DNA of 64,000 nucleotides from an uncultured Alphaproteobacteria bacterium (GCA_934229625.1 CAKQDU010000008.1:360-64359), one strand, 5' to 3'. Positions 1-51,324 are shown, counted from the first letter of the stretch. Program-made: numbers and translations. The notes: generated by a model not told the origin, from the sequence alone.

Positions 1-452
1 TGCCCGACTATGAAAAATTAAATTCAAACGGTTCTCAGCTCTATTTAACTGAATTTGCCATTGCTGCAAATTTAACTCCAACAACATGGTCTAATTCGGG
101 ACTTACGCTTATTGATTCCCAAAATCATTGGGTTTGGCCTTTTGTTCGCAACGGCCATTTGGTTTTTGAAATAGGTATTATTGACCAACAAAATGGTATA
201 ATTCTGCCGGACAAAACTAATCTTGAATATTGCCGAGCTTTATACAATAATGTAATGAAACCTTTGCATAGCGCCCTATATTATGTCAGTTTTTATCGTC
301 ATACGGTGGCTTCGGACTACGCATATTATGGAGACAATTATTGCGGCGGAGAAAATAAATGTCTTAACGAACTTACCTTAAATAAAATTGATGAGATGTG
401 TAAATCTTGTACAGATAAATCTCCGTGGTGCCATATTGTTATGACTTTTTAA
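1..452 (+). CDS. C-terminal part of a prepilin-like paralog (5' end outside window; codon phase starts at nt 3)
   Basis: Open frame from nt 3 with no stop; tail ...NYCGGENKCLNELTLNKIDEMCKSC matches the Cys-rich C-terminal motif of the 36153/38050/45099/46016/50614 family; LVFEI and ANLTPTTW motifs shared. Confidence 0.6.
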   Translation, partial: PDYEKLNSNGSQLYLTEFAIAANLTPTTWSNSGLTLIDSQNHWVWPFVRNGHLVFEIGIIDQQNGIILPDKTNLEYCRALYNNVMKPLHSALYYVSFYRHTVASDYAYYGDNYCGGENKCLNELTLNKIDEMCKSCTDKSPWCHIVMTF

Positions 453-22772: not shown

Positions 22773-22775
22773 TGC

Positions 22776-25600: not shown

Positions 25601-25726
25601 TATATTTCTCCAAAAAAACAGAGATTAAGCTGATTTCAATCAAAAGCTTAATCTCTAAAAATATAAGTTTTATCAAAACACAATTTTACATGATAGTAAT
25701 TTTATTATCATACAGGTAACCAAATG

Positions 25727-26221: not shown

Positions 26222-26350
26222 TTTTACCTCCTATTTTTCCTGAAAATATAAGATAAATATTATAATGTCAATAAGAAAAATATCGTTTTACATTGTAAGA
26301 TTTATATTATATAATGCTTTATATATAATTTTTCAAAAAAGGTAATAAAA

Positions 26351-26794: not shown

Positions 26795-27031
26795 AATAAT
26801 ATGTTTTAGGACTATATAATAATGGATATTGATGAACAAATTCGGGATATTTTAATGAAAAGTACACCGATAAATGATAATTCGGCTCAAAAAAAATCTC
26901 CGCTTTCTACCGCTATTTCACAAAATTTTGGTATTAGCGTCATCGGCAATCAAAATATTGTAATCGGCACAGGAGTCGTGCAACTACTTTTGCTGCTAAG
27001 CATTTTACTCTGCTGTGTTTGTTTGCGCTAG

Positions 27032-36152: not shown

Positions 36153-36767
36153 ATGAAAAATCAACGTGGTCGCAGTATGATAGAAATGCTGGGTGTTTTG
36201 GCACTTATCGGCGTTCTCTCTGTTGGAGGCATCGCCGGATATTCTAAAGCGATGGAAAAATATAAACTTAATAAAACCATTGAAGAATATAACTATGTTA
36301 CACATGGTTTATTAGAGCATTTGCCTGAACTTCAAAAACTAAATTCCACTGACAGTCAATATATGATTACAGATTTTGTTTTAGCCGCAAATATAGTGCC
36401 TTCAACCTGGAAACGACACAATGGAACAGATTTATCAGATTCCTATGGCGGTGCAATAGCTATTTTTATAAGAAACAATCATCTGAGTTTAGAAATTTAT
36501 CATCATTATCCTTATGATGACGCAGGTTCTTTATCTTCAATTGAATTTTGTAAAACTTTGTTTAAGGATGTAGCGCAACCGCTATCATCAGCCATGTACG
36601 GCGTTGGTCTATATATGTTTGATTATGATGATAATATTATATACGGAAATGCCCATTGTGATGGTGATAAAACCTGTTTGAATAATTTAACGATTTCTGA
36701 AATAAATAAAATATGCAACTCCTATAAAAAAGATGCAAATTACAGTTCGGTTATTTTATATTTTTAA
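36153..36767 (+). CDS. type-IV-prepilin-like protein, paralog 1
   Basis: ggagg RBS; leader MKNQRG then RSMIEMLGVLALIGVLSVGGIAGY (Gly-1, Glu+5, hydrophobic helix); Cys-rich C-terminal motif HCDGDKTCLNNLTISEINKICNSY. Confidence 0.6.
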   Translation: MKNQRGRSMIEMLGVLALIGVLSVGGIAGYSKAMEKYKLNKTIEEYNYVTHGLLEHLPELQKLNSTDSQYMITDFVLAANIVPSTWKRHNGTDLSDSYGGAIAIFIRNNHLSLEIYHHYPYDDAGSLSSIEFCKTLFKDVAQPLSSAMYGVGLYMFDYDDNIIYGNAHCDGDKTCLNNLTISEINKICNSYKKDANYSSVILYF

Positions 36768-36810
36768 ATTTTGCCGTATAGACTGTTTTTATTTTACAAT
36801 TATTCAGCGG

Positions 36811-36903
36811 TTAACTTATGGCGTGAGACTGTTATAAAATTAGAGTGTAAACAACATAATTTTAGAGGAAAGAAAGATGAAAAATAAGTTATTCAAATTC
36901 TAA
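36811..36903 (+). promoter_or_regulatory. orphan, truncated copy of the pilin-paralog promoter-leader module
   Basis: ttaact-N16-tataaa then gagtgtaaacaacataattttagaggaaagaaagATGaaaaataag...; copy lacks the (TC)7 tract and downstream gene; uORF reduced to 8 codons (36877-36903). Confidence 0.55.
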
Positions 36904-37025
36904 ACATCTGATTATCATATGAAAAATGAACAAGCCTGTGCCTTAGTTTTGGATTGTTAGCTAAAATGCCTCAAAAAAAACGCTGTAAACTTTTTAGAGT
37001 TCCGCAGCGTTTTTAATTTTACAAA

Positions 37026-37262
37026 CTATTTGTATTTTCCAAACATCAAGCAAATACATCCTAAAATGCAGAAGCCTAACAACATTAAAGCATCCGCATC
37101 TGAAATTTTTGCCATGATATTTTCATCAAATCCGCGATAAATAAAAATAATCATGCATATAACGAAAAGCACAAACAAATCTATCGCACCAAAAATGGCA
37201 ACAATATTTCTGAATTTCATAGTTATATTCTTTACAAACCAAACACTGGAAATTTTTCCCAC
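37026..37262 (-). CDS. small membrane protein
   Basis: 78 aa, 2 TM. Confidence 0.35.
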   Translation of the reverse strand: MGKISSVWFVKNITMKFRNIVAIFGAIDLFVLFVICMIIFIYRGFDENIMAKISDADALMLLGFCILGCICLMFGKYK

Positions 37263-37675
37263 ATATCAGACAAAACAGCAATCATATTGCTAAATACTTT
37301 TCCCCAATCAATTATACAAATCAAAAGCAGAGAAAAAATTCCGCATAAAATGCTTCCATAAAATGAAGCTGTTAACTCAGTTTTACATTGAGCAAGCCTG
37401 CGTTCTTTTTGTTCAAAATATTCTTCCCTATCCATCTCGTTTGAAAACTTCAAACTGCCGCTGCCTCCCGATTTTTCGTACCGATAATCTGCTTTATCCG
37501 AAAAATAAAAAAACAATGCAATCCTGAAGGAAATCAGCATAATAACCAGCAGAATAGCACAGCTTGAGGCTTTTCCCTGAGCAAAGGGCGCAAGAATTAC
37601 TGATAAAATCAATAAAATTGTTGCAAATAACTTAAAATAATAACCACGCATAATTAAATGATTTAAATTAAACAT
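37232..37675 (-). CDS. membrane protein
   Basis: 147 aa, 3-4 TM. Confidence 0.35.
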   Translation of the reverse strand: MFNLNHLIMRGYYFKLFATILLILSVILAPFAQGKASSCAILLVIMLISFRIALFFYFSDKADYRYEKSGGSGSLKFSNEMDREEYFEQKERRLAQCKTELTASFYGSILCGIFSLLLICIIDWGKVFSNMIAVLSDMWEKFPVFGL

Positions 37676-37811
37676 AATAATAAAATTTGGATTTATTTTG
37701 GCTCATACGCCATTTTTTGTCAACATTTAAATATAAAAAAAGTCTGAAATTTTGTTAGTGAATAAGACAGTCGTTTTTTTTACACACTTTCGACAATAAT
37801 AAAGCTTTGAT

Positions 37812-38100
37812 TTTTGCGGTTGACTTATGAAAAAAGGCTGTTATAGAATTGGAGTGTAAACAACATAATTTTAGAGGAAAGAAAGATGAAAAATAAGCTA
37901 TTCAAAGGTCTCTCTCTCTCTCTGCAAATCCTAAACATCTGATTAAAGGCATATTTTTTGCCACTCAGCGTGTTTTTGCAGAGTTCAGCGCAAAAAATCA
38001 CACATTCGAAAATAACACATTCAGTAGCTACTCTATAAAGGGTTCTGGATTGCTTCGTCGTTGCACTCCTCGCAATGACATTTGCAGCGTGGGACGTTCC
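37812..38100 (+). promoter_or_regulatory. conserved promoter-leader module of pilin paralog 2 (sigma-70-like promoter 37820-37847, uORF 37886-37942 with (TC)7 at 37909-37922, inverted repeat ctctgcaaa/tttgcagag)
   Basis: ttgact-N16-tataga; module ~90% identical to copies at 44869 and 45786; uORF MKNKLFKGLSLSLQILNI preceded by gaggaaag RBS. Confidence 0.6.
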
Positions 38101-38700
38101 ATGATAGAAATGCTCGGCGTATTGGCGATTGTCGGAGTGTTATCAGTCGGTGGCATCGCCGGTTACTCCAAAGCTATGGAAAAGTGGAAGGTTAATCAAC
38201 TGATTAGTGAATATACCCATTTTATGTTTGGAGCCGTTGAGCATTTGGATGATATTAAAAAAGTCCCCAACGGCAGCGGCTATGCCGATATAATGCAGTC
38301 TCTAAATATTATTCCAACCTCTTGGAAATATGATAACGCCAGCAATGTCCATGACCGGCTTAATAACCGAATACAGCTATGGCGGGGAGGTTCAGATTTA
38401 GTTTTTGAAATTTATCTGCTGGAAGAATATGAGGAGAAAGATTCTTATTCTTTAGCTGAACCGCGAGTTCAGCTCTGCCGTGAATTGTTTCTAAACTTTG
38501 TACAGCCGCTTTCCGAATTTGTGGATTATTCCTATGTATGGCGTGGAAATGCGCAAACTCTTAATCCGTTATGGTATGGAAATAATTATTGCGGTGCTGA
38601 TAAAAAATGCCTAAAAAACGTAACTCTGGCAGAAATAAACGCAGCTTGCCATACCTGCGGAGACAGCTACGGAACTTGTTCTATTGTTATAACTTATTGA
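38050..38700 (+). CDS. type-IV-prepilin-like protein, paralog 2
   Basis: TTG-start ORF; conserved ...RNDICSVG|RSMIEMLGVLAIVGVLSVGGIAGY; C-terminal NYCGADKKCLKNVTLAEINAACHTCG. Confidence 0.6.
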   Translation: MLRRCTPRNDICSVGRSMIEMLGVLAIVGVLSVGGIAGYSKAMEKWKVNQLISEYTHFMFGAVEHLDDIKKVPNGSGYADIMQSLNIIPTSWKYDNASNVHDRLNNRIQLWRGGSDLVFEIYLLEEYEEKDSYSLAEPRVQLCRELFLNFVQPLSEFVDYSYVWRGNAQTLNPLWYGNNYCGADKKCLKNVTLAEINAACHTCGDSYGTCSIVITY

Positions 38701-38709
38701 TTATAAATT

Positions 38710-38752
38710 AAAAGCAGATATCCCGCATAGAACGATGAGGAATATCTGCTAT
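38710..38752. terminator. bidirectional terminator-like hairpin
   Basis: agcagatat...atatctgct 9-bp stem between convergent genes. Confidence 0.4.
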
Positions 38753-38755
38753 ATT

Positions 38756-39985
38756 TTATTCATAGCGCAAAGCGTTTATCGGATTCAAAAGCGAGGCTTT
38801 ATAGGCTGGGAAAAAGCCAAACAGCAAGCCGACAATGCCCGAAAAACTAAATGGCAAAATCACATAGAATGTGGATAATTCAGCAGAAATAGAAGTCAGT
38901 TTCGGCAGCAGATAAACACCGGCGATACCGAATATAACCCCGATTAAGCCTCCGAGCAGCGATAAAATCAACGCTTCCATCAAAAATTGCAGACGGATAT
39001 CCCAGCGTTTGGCGCCAATAGCCATACGAATACCTATTTCACGAGTGCGTTCGGTAACCGAAACCAGCATTATGTTCATAATACCGATACCGCCGACCAA
39101 TAATGATATTGAAGCGATTGAGCCGAGTAAAATCGTCATAATTTTAGTGGAATTTTGCATCATTTCCATAAATTGAGTCAGGTTCATAATGGTAAAATCA
39201 TCGTCTTTATTTAATCCCAAACGGTGGCGTTGACGCAACAGGGTAGTAATTTCATCTTGCGATGTGTAAGTGCTTTCTGCGTCATAAGCCTGTAACATAA
39301 GCATATTAACCATATCGGGAAATTCTGTTCCGGAAACTTTTTTCTGCACGGTGCTGAGCGGCAAATAAACCATATCGTCTTGGTCTTGTCCTGGTCCGCT
39401 TTGTCCGCGTGTAGTTAAAGCGCCGATAACCGTAAAAGGCAGACCTTTAATGCGAATTGTTTTGCCTAAAGGGTCAATATCGCCAAACAGCTCTTTTACC
39501 ACGGTCTGTCCCAAAATAGCTACTTTGTTTGCGTTTTTAATATCGGCGTCCGAAAAATCACGCCCATAAGCCAACTCCCATTCTTTTATTTCAAAATAGC
39601 GGTTGTCGGTTCCCACAATATTGGTCGCCCAGTTGGTGTTGCCATAAACGATTTGTCCGCTGTCATTAACAACAGGCACGGCCAAACGGATAGTGGCTAT
39701 TTTGTTTTGAATGGCGTTGGCGTCGCCGTTTTTGAGCGTCGGCTGCGAGCCGTGTCCCATACGCGATCCGCCGGAAGTTGAGGAGCCGGAACGAATCATA
39801 ATCAGATTTGTCCCCATACTGCGCATTTCTTTTTGGATTGAGAGCTGCGCGCCATTGCCGATAGCAAGCATCACAATAACCGCCGCCACACCTATAATTA
39901 TACCCAAGCTAGTCAAAACCGAACGCATTTTATTAGCGTGAATGGCGCGGATGGCAATTTTAAAAATAGTTTTCAATTCAATCAT
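38756..39985 (-). CDS. MacB/FtsX-type ABC transporter permease
   Basis: 409 aa; N-terminal TM, large periplasmic domain, C-terminal 3-TM FtsX domain. Confidence 0.85.
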   Translation of the reverse strand: MIELKTIFKIAIRAIHANKMRSVLTSLGIIIGVAAVIVMLAIGNGAQLSIQKEMRSMGTNLIMIRSGSSTSGGSRMGHGSQPTLKNGDANAIQNKIATIRLAVPVVNDSGQIVYGNTNWATNIVGTDNRYFEIKEWELAYGRDFSDADIKNANKVAILGQTVVKELFGDIDPLGKTIRIKGLPFTVIGALTTRGQSGPGQDQDDMVYLPLSTVQKKVSGTEFPDMVNMLMLQAYDAESTYTSQDEITTLLRQRHRLGLNKDDDFTIMNLTQFMEMMQNSTKIMTILLGSIASISLLVGGIGIMNIMLVSVTERTREIGIRMAIGAKRWDIRLQFLMEALILSLLGGLIGVIFGIAGVYLLPKLTSISAELSTFYVILPFSFSGIVGLLFGFFPAYKASLLNPINALRYE

Positions 39986-40686
39986 TTCTGAACTCTTTTC
40001 GTATTTATTATGTCCGAATGAATTTCTCCGTCCACGATTTTGATTATGCGATTGGCATACAGAGCAATATCTTCTTCGTGGGTAACCAAAATGATGGTGC
40101 GGCGCAGTTCTTTATTTAGTTTTGTAAATAAATCCATAATTTCTACGCTCATTTTTGTATCCAGATTTCCGGTCGGCTCATCGGCAAAAATAATCGGAGC
40201 TTCGTTTACAATGGCGCGGGCGATGGCCACACGTTGCTGCTGACCGCCGGAAAGTTGGTTCGGCTGGTGGTGCATACGCTCGTGCAAACCCACGCTGTTC
40301 AAGGCTTTTTCGGCTCTTTCTTTTCGTTCTTCATCGGCAACACCGGCGTAAACCATCGGCAATTCAACATTTTCTATGGCCGAAGTCCGAGAAAGCAGAT
40401 TAAACCCCTGAAAAACAAAGCCGATTTTGCGGTTGCGGATTTCTGCAAGCTGGTCGCCGCTCAGATGTTCAATATTTTCTCCGTCCAGAATATATTCACC
40501 GGAAGTCGGTGTGTCCAAACAGCCGAGAATATTCATCAATGTAGATTTTCCCGAACCGGAAGGCCCCATAATAGCCACAAACTCTCCAGCCGCAATTTCC
40601 AAATTTATACCTTTGAGAATCTCCAAATCAAAGCCGTCCAAAGGATAACTTTTATGAATGTTTTTGAGTTGAATTAAAGGTTTCAT
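39982..40686 (-). CDS. ABC transporter ATP-binding protein (MacB/LolD-type)
   Basis: Walker A GPSGSGKST, signature LSGGQQQRVAIARA, Walker B IIFADEPTGNLD. Confidence 0.9.
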   Translation of the reverse strand: MKPLIQLKNIHKSYPLDGFDLEILKGINLEIAAGEFVAIMGPSGSGKSTLMNILGCLDTPTSGEYILDGENIEHLSGDQLAEIRNRKIGFVFQGFNLLSRTSAIENVELPMVYAGVADEERKERAEKALNSVGLHERMHHQPNQLSGGQQQRVAIARAIVNEAPIIFADEPTGNLDTKMSVEIMDLFTKLNKELRRTIILVTHEEDIALYANRIIKIVDGEIHSDIINTKRVQK

Positions 40687-41840: not shown

Positions 41841-42065
41841 TTTCAGACCTTTCTTTATAAAGATGTTTCATATATAAAAATATTTTGTAAAAAAATCTAT
41901 AAATTTATAACGATAAAATGAAAAAAATGTTCACAAAATAGTATGGAAAAAGTATTGATATGCTAATGAGTTAGAGAGTTATTCACAATTAAAACTTCAA
42001 GTATGAAAAAATACTTTATTTTTTTGAATTTTCTGCTATATATAAATCGCTGAATTTATAACTAT

Positions 42066-43349
42066 GTGATTTTTTTGAGGAATAATTTTTTGAAAAAGCT
42101 TTTGAAAAAAAATAAATTCAAATTTAAAAAACAAAAGGTTCTATATACCGAAAAAAAACCTTTTCTTGCTGACAAAGAAATTATTTTCCGCAGCAACGGC
42201 CGCGCTAAGGTTTTTAATATTTCTCATCGTTTGCAAGTGTTTATGCTGATGCTCTTTGCGGCTGTTTTCGCTTGGTCGGGTTATAATTACTATTTTTATC
42301 ATATTTCAGCCTCCATTATTCATCATAAAGAAAAAGAATTAGGCAAAACCAGAGACGCCTATATGGATTTGATTTCTGATGTGACTGCGCTGCAGAATAA
42401 TTTAAAAAATGTTGTTTCTTCTGTTGATGAAGCCGGAAACGGTTTGCAAGAAATTAAAAACTATAAAGAAAAAGCTCTGGTGGTAGAAGATAAAATTAAA
42501 CAAATAGCCGATTCAGAAAGCTGGATAGACGCTGATAAAATAGAAGAAAAAGTCACTAAAAAAGAAGCATTGCTGCAAAAAGATATTGTCCAGACAGAAA
42601 ACAATCAATTAAAGCAAAAAATTGAAGAACTCGGCGGAAAAATAACCAATCTTCAAGAAACCGTAAAAGGTTTGGAAACGGCGGAAATTGCTATTTTAGA
42701 TAAAATTCATAAACTTTCCGGACGTGAAATAGAGCAAATAAAAACTTCGCTTACACAAATAAATAAATCTCTAAAAGATAAAAACCGCTATTATAATCCG
42801 CTTGCCAATATAAAAGAAGGTAAAGGCGGTGCCTATGAACCTGCACAAGGCATGAAAATAGAAAACCGCAAGCTTTTAGAGAAAATGTCAATAACTTTTA
42901 AGCAAATTGACACATTGGAAAATTATAAACAAGCAATGAAAAGCGTACCTCTTGGCAAACCCGTCTATCGCTATCAGCTAAGTTCGGCTTATGGCACTCG
43001 CCAAGACCCTTTTAAAGCCTATTTGGCTAATCACAAAGGGTTGGATATGCGCGCCGCAGCCGGCAGCCGAATTTCTACTCCTGCGGCAGGACGCGTGACT
43101 TTGGCCGGTTATCAAAAAAACGGATATGGCAATTTGGTGGTTGTTGACCACGGAAATGGTTTTGTTACAAAATATGCTCACATGCGCAAAATTTATGTTA
43201 AAACCGGTGATACAGTGGCTTATAATCAGGCTCTGGGAGAGGTTGGACGCACCGGCCGCGCCACCGGTAACCATTTACACTATGAAGTGCTGTTTCGCGG
43301 GGCAAATGTTAATCCGGCGGCTTTTATTACTTTAAGCAGCCTGAATTAA
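42066..43349 (+). CDS. M23-family peptidase with N-terminal coiled coil (EnvC-like)
   Basis: C-terminal LytM domain HKGLDMRAAAGSRI...GYGNLVVVDHGNGFVTKYAH...GRTGRATGNHLHYEV. Confidence 0.85.
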   Translation: MIFLRNNFLKKLLKKNKFKFKKQKVLYTEKKPFLADKEIIFRSNGRAKVFNISHRLQVFMLMLFAAVFAWSGYNYYFYHISASIIHHKEKELGKTRDAYMDLISDVTALQNNLKNVVSSVDEAGNGLQEIKNYKEKALVVEDKIKQIADSESWIDADKIEEKVTKKEALLQKDIVQTENNQLKQKIEELGGKITNLQETVKGLETAEIAILDKIHKLSGREIEQIKTSLTQINKSLKDKNRYYNPLANIKEGKGGAYEPAQGMKIENRKLLEKMSITFKQIDTLENYKQAMKSVPLGKPVYRYQLSSAYGTRQDPFKAYLANHKGLDMRAAAGSRISTPAAGRVTLAGYQKNGYGNLVVVDHGNGFVTKYAHMRKIYVKTGDTVAYNQALGEVGRTGRATGNHLHYEVLFRGANVNPAAFITLSSLN

Positions 43350-43359
43350 GGAGATAAAA

Positions 43360-43854
43360 ATGAGAAGTTTAAAACGTTTAATTTATTTAAAAATCGCACG
43401 CATGAGCCGCGGCTCTAATACTCCTGTGCCAAGCATTATAAGCTGCGACACCAAAATAAAAGGAGACATCTGGGGCGGCGATACAATTCATATTGACGGC
43501 AAACTCGAAGGTAATATTATGTGCAATGAAGTAATAATCGGCACACGAGGCTATATTGTCGGCGATATTAAAGCCAAGTCTTTGAGCGTTTACGGCACAA
43601 TCAACGGCATAATAGATACCGATGAGCTGTTTGTGGCAAACAATGCCCGCTTAATCGGTAATGCCTATTACAATAAAATAGCTCTTGAACCGGGAGCGTA
43701 TATTGAGGGCAATTGCCTGCCGCGCAACAGACGCCCTGAAGCTCAGCCAAAACCGGCGGCTCTGGTCCAGAACAAACCGGCAGAAACAATAAAAGCAGAA
43801 GCAAAACAGACCGAAGCTAAGTCAGCTGAATCTTCATTAAAAGCTGTAAGATAA
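43360..43854 (+). CDS. bactofilin
   Basis: 164 aa; repeated beta-helical I/V-x-G motifs (DUF583), Pro/Ala/Lys-rich tail. Confidence 0.75.
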   Translation: MRSLKRLIYLKIARMSRGSNTPVPSIISCDTKIKGDIWGGDTIHIDGKLEGNIMCNEVIIGTRGYIVGDIKAKSLSVYGTINGIIDTDELFVANNARLIGNAYYNKIALEPGAYIEGNCLPRNRRPEAQPKPAALVQNKPAETIKAEAKQTEAKSAESSLKAVR

Positions 43855-44333
43855 TGACTGGAAAAAACAAAAAATCAGACTTTATTTCTACTGGTCAGGT
43901 GGCTCAGAATCGCCGTGCGCATTTTGATTATATAATTGACGAAGTTTTTCAGGCCGGTTTGGTTTTAACCGGTACAGAAGTTAAATCTCTGCGCTTGGGA
44001 CATGCCAACATCAACGACGCTTACGGCATTGTTGAACAAGGTGAAATTTATATATCTAATATGTTCATTGCCGAATATGCCAACAAAGGCTATGAAAGCC
44101 ATGTTGAGCGCCGCAACCGCAAACTATTGTTACAGCATAAAGAAATCATTAAAATACAAAACGCTCTGTCGCGTAAAGGCGCCACTTTGATTGCCATGAA
44201 ACTATATTTTGATAATCACGGCAGAGCCAAGCTTGAAATAGGTTTGGGACGCGGTAAAAAACTTTATGATAAGCGAGAGACGGCAAAAGAGCGCGATTGG
44301 AATCGTGAAAAATCTCGTTTGCTGTCGCATTAA
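43854..44333 (+). CDS. smpB: SsrA-binding protein SmpB
   Basis: 159 aa; GTEVKSLR...ANINDAY...HVERRNRKLLL motifs. Confidence 0.9.
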   Translation: MTGKNKKSDFISTGQVAQNRRAHFDYIIDEVFQAGLVLTGTEVKSLRLGHANINDAYGIVEQGEIYISNMFIAEYANKGYESHVERRNRKLLLQHKEIIKIQNALSRKGATLIAMKLYFDNHGRAKLEIGLGRGKKLYDKRETAKERDWNREKSRLLSH

Positions 44334-44403
44334 AAATAGTTTTATAAAATTTCTAACTTCCAAACTAAAAGCCGGATGTACAAACATCAGGCTTTTAGTT
44401 TGT

Positions 44404-44667
44404 TTAAATTCCTAAACCGGCTAAAAATCGGCCGTATTCTTTTTCTGCAGCTGTCGGCTCGCGGTAAAATTCTTTTTGAGCTTTGCCGGCTTTGGTTATT
44501 TTCCAAAGTTTTTCCGTATTGTCAGCGTCGGGGTATTCCTTAATAAATCTCAAGGCAATTAGATGATGGTACGTTTCAAATCCGATATTTTTAATCAGAT
44601 TTTCAGCGCTGCCTTGTTTAGCCTCTCCGATAAATTTAAAAGCATTTATAATATCTTTCATAAGCAT
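44404..44667 (-). CDS. hypothetical protein
   Basis: 87-aa ORF. Confidence 0.3.
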   Translation of the reverse strand: MLMKDIINAFKFIGEAKQGSAENLIKNIGFETYHHLIALRFIKEYPDADNTEKLWKITKAGKAQKEFYREPTAAEKEYGRFLAGLGI

Positions 44668-44868
44668 AAAAATTAGTTTGACATAAAAATAACTATTTGA
44701 ATAAGCAATAAAATATTAACTCATAAAAGTCAATATGTATATTTTAATAAAGTGTATTACATGTCTAAAAATACATCAATATAGAACAAGCATTTTCTCC
44801 GTTATCTTTACACATTTGGCAAGCCTCACTAATTTCTGCCGGTGTCATATCTTTGATATATTTACCTG

Positions 44869-45148
44869 TTGACTTTAGTTAAACGTCTGTTATAGAATTG
44901 GTACGTAAACAACATAATTTTAGAGGAAAGAAAGATGAAAAATAAGCTATTCAAAGGTCTCTCTCTCTCTCTGCAAATCCTAAACATCTGATTAAAGGCG
45001 TATTTTCTGCCGCTCAGCGTGTTTTTGCAGAGTTCGGCGTAAAAAATCACACATTCGGAAATAACAAGTTCAGTAACAACTCTATAAAGGGTTCTGGATT
45101 GCTTCGTCGTTGCACTCCTCGCAATGACGCTTGCTCTACTGGTCGTTC
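44869..45148 (+). promoter_or_regulatory. promoter-leader module of pilin paralog 3 (ttgact 44869-44874, tataga 44891-44896, uORF 44935-44991 with (TC)7)
   Basis: same module as 37812-38100. Confidence 0.6.
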
Positions 45149-45761
45149 CATGATAGAAATGCTCGGCGTTCTAGCTATTATCGGTGTGCTGAGTGTCGGC
45201 GGCATTGCCGGTTATTCCAAAGCAATGGAAAAATGGAAAATAAACAAAACCATTGAAGAATACTCTATGTTAATAACCGGACTTATAGAATATAAAGACA
45301 ATTTTATCAAAAACACCCCGACAGAAACTGATGTATATCTTCCTGATTTTATTCAGGCCGCAAATTTAGTACCTGAAACTTGGAAAAAAGGCGGTTCATC
45401 ATATATGTATGATACTTTAGGAAACAGGGTTAATATATACTTTTCCAACACAGAAAATATTTCCGGCACCCGATATGTCTTTGATATATGGTTTGCTCAA
45501 TCCGCCTCATCAAATAATTCTCTTGCATATAATTTATGCAGAGCTTTTTATCAAGATGTTGGAATTGCCATGTCTTCAAATGTACTGGCAATAATAGTAC
45601 AAAGAGGAAAACACTTTGCATATGGAGATACTTTATGCCACGAAGGGACAGATGAAAAAGGCAACCCAAGACATTGTTTGCGTGATATGAAATTATCAGA
45701 AATTAGTGATATTTGCAAAACCTGCCAGACAACTAATTGCGCTGTGTATCTTGTTTTTTAA
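45099..45761 (+). CDS. type-IV-prepilin-like protein, paralog 3
   Basis: ...RNDACSTG|RSMIEMLGVLAIIGVLSVGGIAGY; C-terminal LCHEGTDEKGNPRHCLRDMKLSEISDICKTC. Confidence 0.6.
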   Translation: MLRRCTPRNDACSTGRSMIEMLGVLAIIGVLSVGGIAGYSKAMEKWKINKTIEEYSMLITGLIEYKDNFIKNTPTETDVYLPDFIQAANLVPETWKKGGSSYMYDTLGNRVNIYFSNTENISGTRYVFDIWFAQSASSNNSLAYNLCRAFYQDVGIAMSSNVLAIIVQRGKHFAYGDTLCHEGTDEKGNPRHCLRDMKLSEISDICKTCQTTNCAVYLVF

Positions 45762-45785
45762 TTATGATTACATCTGATTTTGCGG

Positions 45786-46060
45786 TTGACTTATGGCGTG
45801 ATACTGTTATAGAATTGGAGTGTAAACAATATAATTTTAGAGGAAAGAAAGATGAAAAATAAGCTATTCAAAGGTCTCTCTCTCTCTCTGCAAATCCTAA
45901 ACATCTGATTAAAGGCGTATTTTTTGCCGCTCAGCGTGTTTTTGCAGAGTCCGGCATAAAAAATCATACATCCGGAAATAACAAGTTCAGTAGCTACTCT
46001 ATAAAGGGTTCTGGATTGCTTCGCGTTGCTCGCAATGACGTCTGCAGCGTGGGACGCTCT
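45786..46060 (+). promoter_or_regulatory. promoter-leader module of pilin paralog 4 (ttgact 45786-45791, tataga 45808-45813, uORF 45852-45908 with (TC)7)
   Basis: same module; 6-nt in-frame deletion in the leader-peptide region relative to other copies. Confidence 0.6.
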
Positions 46061-46669
46061 ATGATAGAAATGCTTGGCGTGCTAGCTATTATTGCCATTT
46101 TAACAGTCGGCGGAATTGCCGGTTATTCCAAAGCGATGGAAAAGTTTAAGCTCAATAAAGCAATCAGCGAATATAGTATGCTGATTTTTGGCATGCAGGA
46201 CTATATTGAATCTATACAAAAATATACAATTGACGAACCTCATATCGGCGCTGTACAGATAGCTGAAGCAGCAAATTTAATTCCTCAGGCATGGGAAATA
46301 CAAAGCAATTATGGTCTGCTTGATGTATATGGTAATCGCTTACAAATCTATATAGATAAATCACCTCGGCATTTAATTATAGATTTTTATTTGCAAGGAA
46401 TGACTAAAGCCGAAACCAATCAATATACACAAACATTTTCCGGTAAATTATGTATGGAGCTATTCAATAATATAATTATTCCGCTTAACAATACTATTTA
46501 TGAAGCACACATATTCCGTTCTAAAAGTGGTAATGGTAAAAATTTTTCAGGCAAAACTTCATGCTCCTCAAACAAAACCTGTATAAAAGATATGACACTA
46601 AATGATGTACATAATGCCTGTAATTATTGCACCGCAGAAGATAACTGCGCAATTGTCCTAGTATTTTAA
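46016..46669 (+). CDS. type-IV-prepilin-like protein, paralog 4
   Basis: ...RNDVCSVG|RSMIEMLGVLAIIAILTVGGIAGY; C-terminal SCSSNKTCIKDMTLNDVHNACNYC. Confidence 0.6.
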   Translation: MLRVARNDVCSVGRSMIEMLGVLAIIAILTVGGIAGYSKAMEKFKLNKAISEYSMLIFGMQDYIESIQKYTIDEPHIGAVQIAEAANLIPQAWEIQSNYGLLDVYGNRLQIYIDKSPRHLIIDFYLQGMTKAETNQYTQTFSGKLCMELFNNIIIPLNNTIYEAHIFRSKSGNGKNFSGKTSCSSNKTCIKDMTLNDVHNACNYCTAEDNCAIVLVF

Positions 46670-46722
46670 CTAATTTTGCACACACTTTTAACATTTTAAT
46701 TATGCGGTTAATATTAGTTGAA

Positions 46723-46753
46723 TTGCTGTTTAAGAATATTAAACAGCAATTTC
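46723..46753 (+). terminator. rho-independent terminator
   Basis: ttgctgtttaa-gaatat-ttaaacagcaa 11-bp perfect stem then ttt. Confidence 0.6.
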
Positions 46754-46824
46754 ATATATTAGTCAGCTCAAATATTTCTAAGCCTAAATTTATTGCCGAA
46801 ACCGCCATAAATTATTATAAAACT

Positions 46825-46859
46825 AACCTCCTGAAACCTAGAATCAGTTTCAGGAGGTT
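46825..46859 (-). terminator. rho-independent terminator downstream of rplS
   Basis: aacctcctgaaac-ctagaatca-gtttcaggaggtt 13-bp perfect stem. Confidence 0.6.
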
Positions 46860-46878
46860 AAGCAAACATAGATACTTA

Positions 46879-47268
46879 TTATTTACCTGCGTTAGCGTCT
46901 TTAACAGATACAGACAAATCGTCTGCAATACGAGCAGAACGGCCACGCAAAGCACGCAAGAAGTACAATTTCGCACGGCGAACTTTACCGATACGAGATA
47001 CTTCAATTTTAGCTACGTTTGGAGAATACAACGGGAATACACGCTCAACACCTTCACCGAAAGAAATTTTTCTAACTGTGAAAGAAGAGTTCAAACCGTC
47101 GTTTTTACGAGCAATGCAAACACCTTCATAAACTTGGATACGTTCGCGGTCGCCTTCTTTTACTTTTGTATGAACGCGCAAAGTATCACCCGGCTTAAAT
47201 GTCGGCATATTTTTGCCTTCCATGAGCTTTTCAATTTGCTCTTTTTCAATATTTTCAAGAATGTTCAT
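46879..47268 (-). CDS. rplS: 50S ribosomal protein L19 (alpha-type C-terminal extension)
   Basis: GDTLRV...EGVCIAR...[21 protein letters not shown]...[10 protein letters not shown]. Confidence 0.95.
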
Positions 47269-47323
47269 TAGTTTTACCTTTATTTGTTAATTTGTTACCT
47301 TATAAACCCAAACCTGTCTAAAA

Positions 47324-48028
47324 TCAAGTATTTTCTAACAAGTCAGGTCGTCTTTCTTTAGTTATTTGCAGAGCCTTCTCTTTTTGCCATTTTGCCACGT
47401 TTTCGTGATGACCACTCAAGAGAACGTCCGGTACTTTGCGGTTTTTCCATTCTATGGGACGTGTATACTGCGGATATTCCAGCAAACCGTTTTCAAAACT
47501 TTCGTTTTCGGTGGACGCCGCGTTACCCAACACATTCGGCAAAAGCCGAACAACCGCATCAAGCATTATCATTGCCGCCTGCTCTCCGCCGGTCAAAATA
47601 TAATCGCCGATGCTGAGTTCTTCGATATTGTATTCTTCTAAAACCCGCTCGTCAATTCCCTCAAACCGACCGCAGATAATCGTCAAATTATCTTCTTTGC
47701 TCAATTCATGCACTTTTTGCTGCGTCAGCACCTGCCCTCTCGGACTCATATAAATGATTTTTCCGCCCTTATAGTTGTTGTCAATCGCATTGCCCAACAC
47801 ATCAGGACGCATAATCATTCCGGCACCGCCGCCGCATGGAGTGTCATCAACAGAACCATGCTTATCAAACGCATAATCGCGAATGTTGACAGCTTCCATG
47901 TTCCAAATTCCGTCTTTTAAGGCGCGTCCGGTTAAAGATGTACCTAAAAAACCAGGGAAAATTTCCGGAAAAATGGTCAGAATTTTAACATTCAGCGCCA
48001 TTTTCTTCCTCGCTGTCATCATCAGCAA
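47324..48028 (-). CDS. trmD: tRNA (guanine37-N1)-methyltransferase
   Basis: 234 aa; SPRGQ...GRFEGIDERV...DYILTGGE SPOUT motifs. Confidence 0.93.
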   Translation of the reverse strand: MLMMTARKKMALNVKILTIFPEIFPGFLGTSLTGRALKDGIWNMEAVNIRDYAFDKHGSVDDTPCGGGAGMIMRPDVLGNAIDNNYKGGKIIYMSPRGQVLTQQKVHELSKEDNLTIICGRFEGIDERVLEEYNIEELSIGDYILTGGEQAAMIMLDAVVRLLPNVLGNAASTENESFENGLLEYPQYTRPIEWKNRKVPDVLLSGHHENVAKWQKEKALQITKERRPDLLENT

Positions 48029-48536
48029 AAATCATAGTTGCAGACGAAACAATAATATAACCTTCTTCCAGATTGATTGTCGGCACATACTGCTTGGTAA
48101 ACGGCAGCATTTCAGTTTCTTTGCGGTGCGGCAATTTTATTTCAATTATCTCGCCGGCGCCAAAGTTGCTAAAACGCGCAACCGTGCCAATTTCCTTATC
48201 CAAAGAGTTAAGATATACTTTTAAGCCGATGATATCGCTTAAATAATATTCTTCTTCCGGCAACTGCGGCAAAACATCGCGATTGACATATAGTTCGGTG
48301 CCAATCAAGGCTTCGGCGGCATTGCGGTCGTTTACACCTTCAATTTTCAGGCGCATAACCTCTTTGTGCGGACCAACTGCTTTGATTTTGAATTTATGCG
48401 CAGCCTCTTTATCTTCTACCAAGCCATATTTATCAATATCAGCCGGATTATCGGTGTAGCTGTGAACTTTCACCTCGCCGCGCAAACCATGTGCGGCAAC
48501 AATTTTTCCAAGACATACGCGTTTTTCAGTCATCAA
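47985..48536 (-). CDS. rimM: ribosome maturation factor RimM
   Basis: 183 aa; GKIVAAHGLRGEVKV N-terminal motif; PRC barrel C-terminus; rpsP-rimM-trmD-rplS order. Confidence 0.9.
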   Translation of the reverse strand: MMTEKRVCLGKIVAAHGLRGEVKVHSYTDNPADIDKYGLVEDKEAAHKFKIKAVGPHKEVMRLKIEGVNDRNAAEALIGTELYVNRDVLPQLPEEEYYLSDIIGLKVYLNSLDKEIGTVARFSNFGAGEIIEIKLPHRKETEMLPFTKQYVPTINLEEGYIIVSSATMIFADDDSEEENGAEC

Positions 48537-48587
48537 AGTTCCAATCTAAGGCTCAAAATAACTACCTAATTGTTACATTGCTGAAAA

Positions 48588-48959
48588 TTATTCAGCGGAA
48601 GAAGCAGCTTCGGCAGCAGCGGCAGCTTTAGCTTCTTTTTCTTTCATTCTTTCAACAGCTTTTGCTTTTGGAGCAGATTTTTTAGGCTGTGGAACAATTT
48701 TTGGAGCTTCGCACAAACCCAAGTTTGCAAACAATTTTTGCAATCTTTCTGTCGGCTGAGCGCCTTTTGCCAACCAAGCGGCAACTTTTTCTTTGTCTAC
48801 AACCAATCTTGCTTCATGGTCTTGAGGCAACAACGGATTGTAAGAACCCAATTTTTCAATAAATCTACCATCACGAGGAGCTCTTTGATCAGCTGCAACG
48901 ATACGGTAATAAGGACGTTTTTTAGAACCACTGCGAGAGAGTCTGATACGTACTGACAT
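48588..48959 (-). CDS. rpsP: 30S ribosomal protein S16 with Ala/Lys-rich tail
   Basis: [24 protein letters not shown]... Confidence 0.95.
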
Positions 48960-49000
48960 TTTATAAATTTCCTTTCTTTGTTACAAAACATAACTTCCGC

Positions 49001-50404
49001 TTAAAACGGAAACTTTTTGTTAAACCCGCCAAACGGCATGCCGCCCATCGGATTTCCCTTAAACAATTTAGACATCGCCGACAAAGAGCCGAACTTGCCC
49101 ATTTTTTTCATCATGCCGGACATTTGCTCGTATGATTTGAGCAAAACATTCACATCATGAACAGTTACTCCGGAGCCCTGTGCGATTCTTCTCTTGCGAG
49201 ATGCTTTTATCAAATCAGGATTTAAGCGTTCTTTTTTTGTCATCGACAAAATGATTGCTTCCTGTTTTTTCATCAGATTGTCGCACATGCCGGACTCTTC
49301 AATCTGAGATTTATATTTAGACAACCCCGGAAGCATACCGATAATGCTGCCGATACTGCCCAATTTTTTTATCTGCCGCATTTGCTCCAACATATCGTTC
49401 AAATCAAACGAACCTTTCAGCATTTTTCCGGCCATTTTTTCGGCTTCGGCTTTATCCACGTTTTCAATGGCTTTTTCCACCAAAGAAACCACGTCGCCCT
49501 GCCCCAAAATACGTCCGGCTATGCGGTCAGCATGAAACTCTTCCAATTCATCAATTTTTTCGCCCGTTCCCAAAAACTTTACCGGCGCACCGGAAATCAT
49601 TTTCATAGAAAGAGCGGCACCGGCGCGGGACGAACCGTCTATACGGGTCAAAACCAAACCGGTAATACCAATTTTGTCGTTAAATTCTTTAGCCACATTG
49701 CAGGCTTCCTGACCGATTAAAGCATCGGCAACCAACAAAGTTTCAACCGGTTGCGCCAGTTTTTTAACTTCGGCAACCTCTTCCATTAAAACTTCATCAA
49801 TCTGCAAGCGACCAGCCGTATCCAAAATCAGCAAATCATACACGCCTTTTTTGGCTTCTGCTAAAGCACGTTTAGTAATTTGCAAAGGCTTTTCGCCGGC
49901 AACAATAGGCAAAACATCAACACCGATTTGTTTGCAGAGCTGAGCTAATTGCTCTTGAGCGGCCGGACGGTATACGTCCAATGAAGCCAGCAAAATACGC
50001 TTATTTTTTTTCAGCTTAGCGGCAATTTTAGCGGTTGTGGTAGTTTTACCCGAACCTTGCAGACCAACCATCAAAAAACATACCGGAGCCGGTGCGTTAA
50101 AGTTCAAACTTTCATCACCGTCACCCAACAGTTTAACCAGTTCATCATGCACGATTTTAACAACCATTTGCCCCGGCTGCACCGATTTAACCACCTTTTC
50201 TCCAAGAGACTGTTCTTTAACTTTGGCAATAAATTCTTTAACCACCGGCAATGAAACATCAGCTTCAAGCAACGCCACGCGAATTTCACGCATAGCATCG
50301 TCAATATCTTTTTCTGACAGCACTCCTCGGGAGGTTATCTTAGAAAAAGCCTGGCTCAGCTTGTCGGTCAAATTTTCAAACATTTCTGTTTTTACCTTTA
50401 TCAC
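49001..50404 (-). CDS. ffh: signal recognition particle protein Ffh
   Basis: 467 aa; GLQGSGKTTT, DTAGR, M-domain Met-rich C-terminus. Confidence 0.95.
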   Translation of the reverse strand: MIKVKTEMFENLTDKLSQAFSKITSRGVLSEKDIDDAMREIRVALLEADVSLPVVKEFIAKVKEQSLGEKVVKSVQPGQMVVKIVHDELVKLLGDGDESLNFNAPAPVCFLMVGLQGSGKTTTTAKIAAKLKKNKRILLASLDVYRPAAQEQLAQLCKQIGVDVLPIVAGEKPLQITKRALAEAKKGVYDLLILDTAGRLQIDEVLMEEVAEVKKLAQPVETLLVADALIGQEACNVAKEFNDKIGITGLVLTRIDGSSRAGAALSMKMISGAPVKFLGTGEKIDELEEFHADRIAGRILGQGDVVSLVEKAIENVDKAEAEKMAGKMLKGSFDLNDMLEQMRQIKKLGSIGSIIGMLPGLSKYKSQIEESGMCDNLMKKQEAIILSMTKKERLNPDLIKASRKRRIAQGSGVTVHDVNVLLKSYEQMSGMMKKMGKFGSLSAMSKLFKGNPMGGMPFGGFNKKFPF

Positions 50405-50613
50405 CTTGTTAATACAAACAAATTTACGTCAGTGTGCGAAACCTCGCTGGCTGACGGACTCCTCGGAGCTTGAATTTTTTACAACTCTTTTGGTAAAAAT
50501 TCACTAAATTTGCTTTGTTTATACTTAAAAAATCCCCGCTTGTCAACCCCTTTTTAAAACAATATCCCAGCAAAATAGAATTGTTACATTTCTATTTTGC
50601 TATGACAATCATT

Positions 50614-51324
50614 TCACAACTTGAAAAACATAATCAAACTGCATCGTTTTTCAGAATTGCATTTTTTACAAAAATCATAAATTTCATTCGGCTTAGCAGA
50701 ACCGATATTGTCCAATCTGGTTGCAGAAAATCCATTATAACTGTTATCTGACGCAAAATTTGCAATATCATCAACATATGGAGCAATCGCCTGTGCTTGT
50801 TCTAAAAATGTTACGCAATATTGTTGCTGTAAACGAGTTGAAACATTGTTTTGAGAAATAAGAAAACGCAAAGAATATTCATAAGCATGATGAGTTTTAC
50901 CGTCTTGACTGTTCCATGTATTATACCACATCAGCATATCTAAATTATTGCCGGCAAAATCTTCAAATGCATTATTATGTATTTTTGTCAGTCCGTCAGG
51001 TATCCCCCCCATAGCTTCCATAATATCAGCTGTTGGAACAACTTTGTTATCTTTTAAACATTCGCGCATAAAATCATCTTTTAAATTTATGCTTTGCAAA
51101 AACAATTCGGCTAAATACTCTTTCTGCCGACTAATTTTCCATTGTTCCATAGCTTTTGAGTAACCAGCGATTCCTCCGACTGATAGCACAGCAATAATCG
51201 CCAGTACGCCAAGCATTTCTATCATTGACCGTCCCAATGTACAAATGTCACAATTGCGTGCGGTGCAAATCAATCCGCTAAAATTATACGAATTTTTTGT
51301 ATTTTCTTTTAATTTATCAGACAT
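50614..51324 (-). CDS. type-IV-prepilin-like protein, paralog 5 (long 33-aa leader)
   Basis: aaggag RBS; ...CTARNCDICTLG|RSMIEMLGVLAIIAVLSVGGIAGYSKAMEQWK; C-terminal FCKKCNSEKRC. Confidence 0.6.
   Translation of the reverse strand: MSDKLKENTKNSYNFSGLICTARNCDICTLGRSMIEMLGVLAIIAVLSVGGIAGYSKAMEQWKISRQKEYLAELFLQSINLKDDFMRECLKDNKVVPTADIMEAMGGIPDGLTKIHNNAFEDFAGNNLDMLMWYNTWNSQDGKTHHAYEYSLRFLISQNNVSTRLQQQYCVTFLEQAQAIAPYVDDIANFASDNSYNGFSATRLDNIGSAKPNEIYDFCKKCNSEKRCSLIMFFKL

What the first reader, a model, noticed from the sequence alone, without database searches (positions are those of the whole stretch)
36153..51324. Dispersed multigene family of type-IV-prepilin-like proteins with hypervariable Cys-rich C-terminal domains
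There are six members: <1-452, 36153-36767, 38050-38700, 45099-45761, 46016-46669 and 50614-51324 (minus strand). All share an almost invariant G|RSMIEMLGVLAIIGVLSVGGIAGYSKAMEK(W/F/Y)K(L/V/I)N N-terminus with Gly-1, Glu+5 and a hydrophobic helix, which is the class III signal-peptide architecture. All have a conserved tail, (N/H)-(Y/C)-C-x3-5-(K/N)-(K/T)-C-(L/I)-(K/N)-(N/D)-(V/L/M)-T-L-x-(E/D)-(I/V)-(N/H/S/D)-x2-C-x2-C. The middle ~120 residues are highly divergent.

This pattern (conserved N-terminal assembly helix plus Cys-stapled C-terminal domain, diversified centre) fits surface-exposed pilin subunits under diversifying selection or a set of alternative minor/major pilins. No pilus assembly genes (pilB/C/D/M-Q, gspD/E/F) lie in this window, so the family is dispersed away from its machinery.
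Basis: partly seen in the sequence, partly recalled or inferred. Interest (0 to 1): 0.8.

Follow-up and report, generated by a model that had tools for sequence, protein, structure and literature searches.

The report
Phase-variable pilin-like gene family
An uncultured human-gut alphaproteobacterium carries dozens of scattered genes for type IVb-pilin-like surface proteins, and many appear to be switched on or off individually by a short (TC)n repeat in an unusually long leader-coding region, giving a bet-hedging system not previously described for pilins.

Summary

Three window genes (38050, 45099, 46016) share a near-identical 5' cassette:
- a promoter-like site
- an RBS and ATG (MKNKLFKG)
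- a (TC)7T tract
- a 54-56-codon leader that is open only in the pilin frame

With (TC)7 the ATG frame stops after 19 codons, so all three are OFF. With (TC)6 it reads through to G|RSMIEML. A 98%-identical strain (L029) has (TC)6 at the 45099 locus, and that is the only indel.

Across 51 tract-bearing genes, the tract-to-Gly distance (48-627 nt) is always a multiple of 3. In the 38 analysed in detail, 3,022 leader codons hold 0 stops in the pilin frame, against 179 and 273 in the other frames.

No prepilin peptidase, platform protein or secretin was found in about 1.5 Mb sampled, only an orphan T2SSE ATPase. Filament assembly is therefore unproven.

The parts
3..452 (+). C-terminal 149 codons of a family member; its 5' end lies outside the window.
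   Evidence: Translation and alignment. The syntenic ortholog in L102 (10001-10603) has a (TC)7T tract 354 nt upstream, which is the OFF state.
36153..36767 (+). Family member with a classical short prepilin-type leader, MKNQRG|RSMIEML. It has GGAGG before the ATG and no repeat tract.
   Evidence: Pfam N_methyl scores 19.5 bits against a 21.2 cut-off.
36807..36900 (+). Relic of the 5' cassette: promoter-like site, RBS, then ATG AAA AAT AAG TTA TTC AAA TTC TAA. It has no TC tract and no pilin gene after it.
   Evidence: blastn hit at 94.5% identity to the cassette; sequence read.
37820..37849 (+). Promoter-like site TTGACT-18-TAGAAT of gene 38050.
   Evidence: Located. The same motif scores 10 of 12 at the two sister genes.
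37886..37945 (+). RBS-backed ATG and OFF-state short ORF MKNKLFKGLSLSLQILNI*, which contains the (TC)7T tract at 37909-37923.
37924..38700 (+). Leader (56 stop-free codons in the pilin frame, to Gly at 38092-38094) followed by the 201-aa mature protein. It joins the ATG at 37886 only if the tract loses one TC unit or gains two.
44869..44898 (+). Promoter-like site TTGACT-18-TAGAAT of gene 45099.
   Evidence: 10 of 12 matches, the joint best hit in that region.
44935..44994 (+). RBS-backed ATG and OFF-state short ORF, with the (TC)7T tract at 44958-44972.
   Evidence: The ortholog in L029 has (TC)6T, and this is the only indel in the upstream alignment.
44973..45761 (+). Leader (56 codons, to Gly at 45141-45143) followed by the 205-aa mature type IVb-pilin-like protein. 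This is the member that was modelled.
   Evidence: pN/pS against its orthologs is 0.07-0.16.
45786..45815 (+). Promoter-like site TTGACT-18-TAGAAT of gene 46016.
45852..45911 (+). RBS-backed ATG and OFF-state short ORF, with the (TC)7T tract at 45875-45889.
45890..46669 (+). Leader (54 codons, to Gly at 46052-46054) followed by the 204-aa mature protein. Synteny with strains L001 and L002 ends inside its conserved N-terminal region.
50614..51324 (-). Family member with AAGGAG before the ATG and a 31-aa in-frame leader ending in a degenerate GLICTARNCDICTLG| module. It has no repeat tract.

Best explanation
The window holds six members of a very large dispersed family of type IVb-pilin-like pre-proteins from an uncultured human-gut alphaproteobacterium. 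A related MAG has at least 44 copies.

Each gene has its own promoter-like site and start codon. It encodes four parts in order:
1. a leader
2. an invariant Gly followed by R-S-M-I-E
3. a nearly invariant hydrophobic alpha-1 helix
4. a roughly 150-residue head that differs between copies and usually has six Cys

About a third of the genes, including three in this window, carry a shared 5' cassette. An RBS-backed ATG (MKNKLFKG) is followed by a (TC)n tract, and then by a leader of 16-209 codons that is open only in the pilin frame.

Gain or loss of TC units by slipped-strand mispairing puts the ATG in or out of frame. (TC)6 is ON, while (TC)5, (TC)7 and (TC)8 are OFF. Each gene is therefore an independent, heritable and presumably reversible ON/OFF switch. 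All three tract genes in this window are OFF, and two others (36153, 50614) have fixed in-frame starts.

The following steps are inferred, not shown. The leader stays cytoplasmic and is cut off at G|R by a prepilin peptidase. The mature protein is then built into, or displayed by, a type IV filament. The cell population thereby varies its adhesive, antigenic or phage-receptor surface.
For: Family and fold:
- The alignments show residues 1-36 at 86% pairwise identity and the rest at 21-28%.
- Gly is at -1 in 162 of 162 ORFs, and +1 is R in 158 and K in 4. The median mature length is 204 aa, and 116 of 157 have six Cys.
- The AF2 model has pLDDT 85.9 and pTM 0.80, with a helix over residues 8-50.
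- The GRS codons vary synonymously between paralogs, so translation must begin upstream of them.

Switch:
- The cassette is near-identical in three window genes. Its promoter-like site scores 10 of 12.
- A metagenome scan found tracts of 13, 15 and 17 nt. Only the 13-nt tract joins the ATG to a 269-344-aa ORF.
- L029 is syntenic with window 42040-45885 at 98.2% identity. Upstream of gene 45099 it differs by a single TC unit, making it ON there and OFF in the window, L001 and L002.
- In 51 of 51 tract-bearing genes the tract-to-Gly distance is a multiple of 3, across more than 20 different lengths.
- In the 38 genes analysed in detail, 3,022 leader codons have 0 stops in the pilin frame against 179 and 273 in the other frames. 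Shuffles predict 1.1 of 38 stop-free.
- The OFF gene 45099 is under purifying selection, with pN/pS 0.07-0.16, so it is not a decaying pseudogene.

Scale:
- More than 7,900 hits at the 90% cluster level, with no Pfam family; all named hits are Alphaproteobacteria MAGs.
- 5,563 representatives at 50% identity.
- At least 44 copies in 316 kb sampled from MAG CAKQRZ01.

Machinery:
- A conserved T2SSE-family ATPase exists in the close relative CAKQRZ01.
Against: - No A24 prepilin peptidase, T2SSF platform or secretin was found in the window or in about 1.5 Mb of related loci. The ATPase is an orphan with no pilus neighbours.
- Pfam and NCBIfam prepilin motifs score below their thresholds.
- Foldseek against PDB gave no significant hit.
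- Arg at +1 and leaders of 60-200 aa are unprecedented for characterised pilins.
- Tract-length change at one and the same locus was seen for only one orthologous group.
- Heterogeneity within a single population could not be examined.
- Most tracts share one length: 35 of 51 are (TC)7.
Confidence: 0.6

Rival explanations
1. The proteins have a pilin-like fold but are not filament subunits. They would be signal-anchored, or Sec-cleaved after GGIA|G, periplasmic or surface proteins. This resembles the large prepilin-motif families of Planctomycetes and Verrucomicrobia, whose function is unknown. The (TC)n switch would still operate.
For: - No peptidase, platform or secretin was found in about 1.5 Mb sampled.
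- The genes are never next to machinery genes.
- The prepilin HMMs score below threshold.
- The +1 residue is basic.
Against: - Residues 1-36 are 86% identical between paralogs that share about 21% elsewhere. That is typical of an assembly helix, not of a Sec signal peptide.
- Gly at -1 and Glu at +5 are invariant.
- A T2SSE ATPase is conserved in the lineage.
Confidence: 0.25
2. The out-of-frame genes are silent donor cassettes or pseudogenes. Variation would arise by gene conversion into a few expressed loci, as with Neisseria pilE/pilS, and the TC tract would be incidental.
For: - The 5' cassette and N-terminal coding region are near-identical between paralogs.
- Synteny with L001 and L002 breaks inside the conserved N-terminal region of gene 46016.
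- A chimeric ORF, P0002, exists.
- Both observations point to recombination between copies.
Against: - Every copy is full length, with its own promoter-like site, RBS and ATG.
- Leaders are kept in frame and stop-free in 51 of 51 genes, which is pointless for untranslated donors.
- ON alleles exist.
- pN/pS is 0.07-0.16.
Confidence: 0.08
3. The tract-bearing genes are expressed constitutively from an internal TTG or GTG start within the LLRR...SVG module. The upstream ATG-(TC)n ORF would be only a regulatory upstream ORF.
For: An in-frame TTG lies 14-15 codons before the conserved Gly in genes 38050, 45099 and 46016. From reading the sequence, an AAGGG lies about 7 nt upstream of it.
Against: - This does not explain why the whole 48-627-nt stretch from tract to Gly is always a multiple of 3, or why it has 0 stops in 3,022 codons.
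- It does not explain why relatives without the tract use the homologous upstream ATG with a strong GAGGAGG RBS.
Confidence: 0.07

Closest known systems
Type IVb pilins (CofA/CFA-III, TcpA, LngA, Salmonella Typhi PilS)
   Same: - Similar size, about 200 aa.
- Leader longer than in type IVa pilins, ending in Gly.
- A non-Phe residue at +1 and Glu at +5.
- A long alpha-1 helix plus an alpha/beta head, with C-terminal Cys.
   Different: - There is no detectable sequence similarity, and Foldseek does not recover them.
- The +1 residue is Arg or Lys.
- Most members have six Cys rather than two.
- There are dozens of dispersed copies instead of one gene inside an assembly operon.
- No cognate machinery was found.
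Helicobacter pylori Hop outer-membrane protein genes (oipA, sabA and others) with CT dinucleotide repeats in the 5' coding region
   Same: The repeat unit is the same (CT/TC) and sits in the 5' coding region. Frameshifting gives ON/OFF states, and each member of a paralogous surface-protein family switches on its own (PMC10564699, PMC2715451; window data).
   Different: - The H. pylori proteins are beta-barrel outer-membrane proteins with Sec signal peptides.
- Here the cargo is pilin-like, with a class III-type N-terminus.
- Here the tract is followed by a long, modular, translated leader of up to 209 codons.
Neisseria opa genes (CTCTT repeats in the leader-coding region) and the pilE/pilS and pilC systems
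   Same: From my own knowledge, not tested here: opa genes form a dispersed multigene family whose members switch independently through a pyrimidine repeat in the leader-coding region. Neisseria pili also vary in antigen and phase.
   Different: - Opa proteins are not pilins.
- Neisseria pilin variation uses promoterless partial pilS copies and gene conversion. Here every copy is complete and has its own start.
Large families with prepilin-type N-termini in Planctomycetes, Verrucomicrobia and Lentisphaerae (DUF1559-type)
   Same: From my own knowledge: tens to hundreds of dispersed paralogs per genome share a prepilin-like N-terminus, lie away from any assembly operon, and have no known function.
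   Different: - Those have the canonical GFTLIE motif and a different C-terminal domain.
- I know of no repeat-based switch for them.
- The present family matches no Pfam family.

Membership tests
Type IV pilin / class III signal-peptide proteins | Leader ending in Gly(-1), with Glu at +5 of the mature protein | tested here: met
   Gly at -1 in 162 of 162 family ORFs. The E of GRSMIE is at least 90% conserved across 77 sequences. Short basic leaders such as MKNQRG| and MKQNQS-G| occur in some members.
Type IV pilin / class III signal-peptide proteins | Match to the curated N-terminal methylation motif models (Pfam PF07963, TIGR02532) above their cut-offs | tested here: not met
   Best PF07963 score is 19.5 bits against a 21.2 cut-off. 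Best TIGR02532 score is 15.1 against 16.3. The other members score lower.
Type IV pilin / class III signal-peptide proteins | Hydrophobic or aromatic +1 residue (Phe in type IVa; Met, Leu or Val in type IVb) | tested here: not met
   The +1 residue is Arg in 158 and Lys in 4 of 162. An alternative cleavage register, RS|M, cannot be excluded.
Type IV pilin / class III signal-peptide proteins | Pilin fold: extended N-terminal alpha-1 helix packed on an alpha/beta head | tested here: met
Type IV pilin / class III signal-peptide proteins | Cleavage by an A24 prepilin peptidase encoded in the genome | tested here: inconclusive
   tblastn, phmmer and a 3-sequence HMM found none in the window or in about 1.5 Mb from about 12 related MAGs. 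That covers only about 15-20% of any one genome.
Type IV pilin / class III signal-peptide proteins | Assembly machinery: T2SSE ATPase, T2SSF platform, and a secretin in diderms | tested here: inconclusive
   Only an orphan 317-aa T2SSE ATPase was found (PF00437, E 2e-32) in the close relative CAKQRZ01. It is 80-94% conserved in the lineage. No platform or secretin was found.
Simple-sequence-repeat (contingency-locus) phase variation | Repeat tract within the 5' coding region whose unit number sets the reading frame | tested here: met
   The (TC)n tract begins 23 nt after the first base of an RBS-backed ATG. A 13-nt tract is in frame, and 11, 15 or 17 nt are out of frame. In 51 of 51 genes the downstream distance is a multiple of 3.
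Simple-sequence-repeat (contingency-locus) phase variation | Tract length differs between strains at the same locus | tested here: met
   L029 has (TC)6, while the window, L001 and L002 have (TC)7, at the syntenic 45099 locus (98.2% identity). This is the only indel. It is one locus only.
Simple-sequence-repeat (contingency-locus) phase variation | Frequent, reversible switching within a clonal population | not testable with these tools
   This needs raw reads or cultures. No overlapping contigs from one sample were available.
pilE/pilS-type gene-conversion antigenic variation | Promoterless, 5'-truncated silent copies that donate to one expression locus | tested here: not met
   All complete copies keep the conserved N-terminus, a start codon and, where examined, a promoter-like site.
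Type II secretion pseudopilins (GspG-K) | Located in a gsp operon, with sequence similarity to GspG-K | tested here: not met
   No gsp genes lie nearby. Only N-terminal matches to GspG were found, at E about 1e-3. Structural matches to type IVb pilins are better than to any pseudopilin.

The most novel reading that the evidence does not exclude
A human-gut commensal lineage of Alphaproteobacteria maintains about 50 alternative type IVb-like pilin genes per roughly 2-Mb genome. About a third of them would be stochastic switches driven by a (TC)n tract. They would be expressed through giant leaders (up to about 200 aa) assembled from in-frame, repeat-like DNA modules that are removed at an invariant G|R site. 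This would be a pilus-based antigenic, adhesive or phage-receptor variation system, with a leader architecture and possibly an assembly machinery unlike any characterised type IV filament system.
Probability: 0.35. Interest if true: 0.85.

Novelty: new variant of a known kind. Interest (0 to 1): 0.72.

Why it matters
Repeat-driven contingency loci are known almost only from pathogens such as Neisseria, Haemophilus, Helicobacter and Campylobacter. Here the same logic appears in an uncultured commensal lineage of the human gut. It is applied to a pilin-like family that takes up a few percent of a small genome and has no Pfam family.

If the proteins are surface filaments, this is a ready-made system for studying how a commensal evades IgA or phages, or changes its adhesion.

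The leaders are also of interest in themselves. Stretches of 16-209 codons built from repeat modules are kept in frame and free of stops in every gene examined. This implies that insertions into a cleavable leader are tolerated and filtered only for translatability.

Practically, gene callers mis-annotate these genes, with starts at internal TTG codons or long spurious N-terminal extensions. OFF alleles look like 5'-truncated or mis-started genes.

Tried and rejected
- **Rfam scan of the window.** It found only a tRNA, so there is no known riboswitch or leader RNA upstream of the genes.
- **A REP element spread through the genome.** The CTCGCAATGAC module occurs only at the three cassettes in the window. 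Leader modules are largely confined to family upstream regions, with 119 hits inside and 15 outside.
- **Sequence similarity to solved structures.** None was found.
- **Foldseek.** The PDB search gave no significant hit, and the afdb50 library was unavailable.
- **Diversifying selection between orthologs.** Rejected for gene 45099, where pN/pS is 0.07-0.16.
- **Machinery search.** E. coli Gsp, ETEC Longus (type IVb) and Kozakia T2SS baits were run by tblastn, phmmer and small HMMs. Only an orphan ATPase turned up. Its genomic contexts in relatives show no pilus genes.
- **Within-sample ON/OFF pairs.** No overlapping contigs were available.
- **Literature.** Searches found no description of this family.
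- **First genome scan.** The scan with alignment A1 failed because it had no fully conserved stretch. It was repeated with alignment A5.

Full report
**1. Observation**

The window (38% G+C) carries housekeeping genes: argS, priA, mutS, smpB and ffh-rpsP-rimM-trmD-rplS. It also holds a prophage.

A six-frame motif search and translation confirm six paralogs at the stated coordinates. The first is a C-terminal fragment.

In the five complete copies, mature residues 1-36 (GRSMIEMLGVLAIIGVLSVGGIAGYSKAMEKWK...) are 86% identical pairwise. The head is 21% identical and the Cys-containing tail 28%. The 'conserved tail' is thus mainly a Cys pattern, complete in four of the six copies.

No pilus-assembly gene lies in the window.

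**2. What the proteins are**

Sequence-based tests give little:
- Pfam and NCBIfam return only sub-threshold prepilin-motif hits: PF07963 at 19.5 bits against a 21.2 cut-off, and TIGR02532 at 15.1 against 16.3.
- A profile of the family finds no solved structure by sequence.

The family is nevertheless very large:
- More than 7,900 clusters at 90% identity. None has a Pfam domain, and all that carry names come from uncultured Alphaproteobacteria MAGs.
- 5,563 representatives at 50% identity with E <= 1e-3, and 3,961 with E <= 1e-10.
- More than 583 matching stretches in species-representative genomes, mostly human-gut MAGs.
- At least 44 distinct copies in 316 kb sampled from CAKQRZ01. That MAG is syntenic with the window start.

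Structure prediction is more informative. An AlphaFold2 model of the mature 45099 protein, built from a 77-sequence alignment, has pLDDT 85.9 and pTM 0.80. It has a helix over residues 8-50 followed by an alpha/beta head.

Across 162 family ORFs:
- Gly precedes the conserved block in all of them.
- The next residue is Arg in 158 and Lys in 4.
- The median mature length is 204 aa.
- 116 of 157 have exactly six Cys.

The GRS codons differ synonymously between paralogs: GGT/GGA, CGC/CGT/CGG and AGT/TCN. They are therefore translated, and the start codon must lie upstream, so a leader exists. Some members have textbook short leaders, such as MKNQRG| in the window and MKQNQS-G| or MKYNQI-G| in CAKQRZ01.

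**3. The switch**

Genes 38050, 45099 and 46016 share about 260 nt of near-identical upstream DNA. It contains, in order:
- TTGACT-18-TAGAAT, which scores 10 of 12 and is the best promoter-like match in the region
- AGAGGAAAGAAAG followed by ATG AAA AAT AAG CTA TTC AAA GG
- a (TC)7T tract
- 162-168 nt that are open only in the pilin frame, ending at the conserved Gly

With (TC)7 the ATG frame stops after 19 codons. One unit fewer would fuse it to the pilin frame.

A pattern scan of metagenome contigs found 24 further cassettes with tracts of 13, 15 or 17 nt. Every complete 13-nt case reads from the ATG through the leader into a 269-344-aa pre-protein.

Contig L029 is syntenic with window 42040-45885 at 98.2% identity. 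It carries (TC)6 at the 45099 locus, whereas the window and two other strains (L001, L002) carry (TC)7. This is the only indel in the upstream alignment.

Among 165 distinct family ORFs, 51 have the tract. The tract lengths are:

| Tract length | Genes | State |
|---|---|---|
| 13 nt | 5 | ON |
| 15 nt | 35 | OFF |
| 17 nt | 10 | OFF |
| 11 nt | 1 | OFF |

In all 51, the distance from the tract to the Gly codon (48-627 nt, more than 20 different lengths) is a multiple of three.

For the 38 genes analysed in detail, 3,022 leader codons contain 0 stops in the pilin frame, against 179 and 273 in the other two frames. Shuffling predicts 1.1 stop-free leaders out of 38. The leader is therefore under selection to be translatable from the tract onward, which only makes sense if the upstream ATG is the start.

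Relatives without the tract use the homologous ATG in frame, with a strong GAGGAGG RBS. An example is MFKGIEFFKGKSREVEYGLLRVARNDVCSVG|RSMIEML.

The OFF gene 45099 evolves under purifying selection, with pN/pS 0.07-0.16 against its orthologs. It is not a pseudogene.

**4. Leader modules**

Leaders differ by insertion of repeat-like modules. Their translations include LLRRCTPRND, LHRPWCDKILGTD...GGRGAN and ...DSWDKPKNDG... These modules are largely confined to family upstream regions: 119 blast hits inside them against 15 outside, several of the latter at contig ends. Gene callers turn them into spurious N-terminal extensions.

**5. Machinery**

Baits from E. coli Gsp, the ETEC Longus type IVb operon and a Kozakia T2SS were searched by tblastn, phmmer and small HMMs. 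The target was all ORFs of the window plus about 1.5 Mb of related loci.

No A24 peptidase, T2SSF protein or secretin was found. The only hit was a 317-aa T2SSE-family ATPase in CAKQRZ01 (PF00437, E 2e-32). It is 80-94% conserved in the lineage, and NCBI names its orthologs 'TadA'. It is always an orphan, with a FadL-type porin on one side and no pilus genes nearby.

Only about 15-20% of any one genome was sampled, and always around family members.

**6. Interpretation**

Shown:
- a very large, dispersed family of proteins with a type IVb-pilin-like predicted fold and a class III-like N-terminus
- a (TC)n tract whose length sets the frame
- tract-length polymorphism at one orthologous locus and between paralogs
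- strict maintenance of a translatable leader

Inferred:
- reversible slipped-strand switching within populations
- cleavage at G|R; an RS|M register is also conceivable
- incorporation into a type IV filament
- a role in surface variation

The closest mechanistic analogues are the CT-repeat switches of H. pylori oipA and sabA (PMC10564699, PMC2715451; general review PMC11868660) and, from my own knowledge, the Neisseria opa genes. The closest structural relatives are the type IVb pilins. The pilE/pilS model does not fit, because every copy is complete and has its own start.

I found no paper describing this family.

**7. Verdict**

The pilin-like reading is supported by motif and fold, but unproven at the level of processing and assembly.

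The main new result is the repeat-driven ON/OFF switch and the long modular leader. I rate this a new variant of known kinds (contingency loci and type IV pilin-like proteins), of high interest for gut-commensal biology.

Noticed in passing
window 10400-26800: A prophage lies between the glycosyltransferase/ABC-transporter genes and priA. It encodes terminase large subunit (18263-19588), portal (23553-25289), major head protein (15015-15980), tail fibre/collar (22776-23540) and endolysin (19805-20257), all with PHROG hits. The syntenic relative L102 has a family member and the T2SSE ATPase in this neighbourhood instead.
   Followed up: partly
window 36807-36900: A solo relic of the 5' cassette sits just downstream of gene 36153. 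It has the promoter-like site, RBS and ATG AAA AAT AAG TTA TTC AAA TTC TAA, but the TC tract and the pilin gene are deleted. This suggests past loss of a family member.
   Followed up: partly
window 45699-46175 versus L001/L002 3601-4083: Synteny with two 97.7%-identical strains ends inside the conserved N-terminal coding region of gene 46016. Downstream they carry a different 193-aa family member and unrelated genes. The conserved 5' block therefore seems to act as a recombination breakpoint that swaps heads or rearranges the genome.
   Followed up: partly
P0002 (969-nt MGnify contig; 100% identical to gene 45099 over 96% of the query): This ORF fuses the Cys tail of another family member (MTPAEISEACQMCKENGENAC) directly to ...STG|RSMIEML of gene 45099. 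It is either a recombinant or an assembly chimera at the repeat.
   Followed up: no
L073 19348-20301 (= L102 18280-19233): An orphan 317-aa T2SSE-family ATPase is highly conserved in the lineage, with 400-468-aa forms in more distant relatives. It has no pilus neighbours. In relatives it is followed by a 630-666-aa hydrophilic protein with no Pfam match.
   Followed up: partly
window 51837-52208 and 52789-53205; 53317-54402 and 54713-55378: Two pairs of local paralogs with no Pfam match for the members scanned (51837-52208 and 53317-54402). One pair is near-identical 123- and 138-aa proteins (…VKDYYEIIS.DFK…). The other pair both begin MANFDY. They lie just beyond family member 50614-51324.
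   Followed up: no
L036-L114 (record titles): Several bins that carry many family members are labelled Bacteroidaceae, Eubacteriales, Lachnospiraceae or [Ruminococcus] gnavus. This is probably mis-assigned taxonomy or contaminated bins of the same alphaproteobacterial lineage.
   Followed up: no
L108, L111, L112 (about 75 nt upstream of the conserved Gly codon): Three family members in MAG CAVBCV01 have an A10-11 homopolymer about 75 nt upstream and a very short open upstream frame (LMYTQS-G). This may be a different, promoter-level repeat switch.
   Followed up: no
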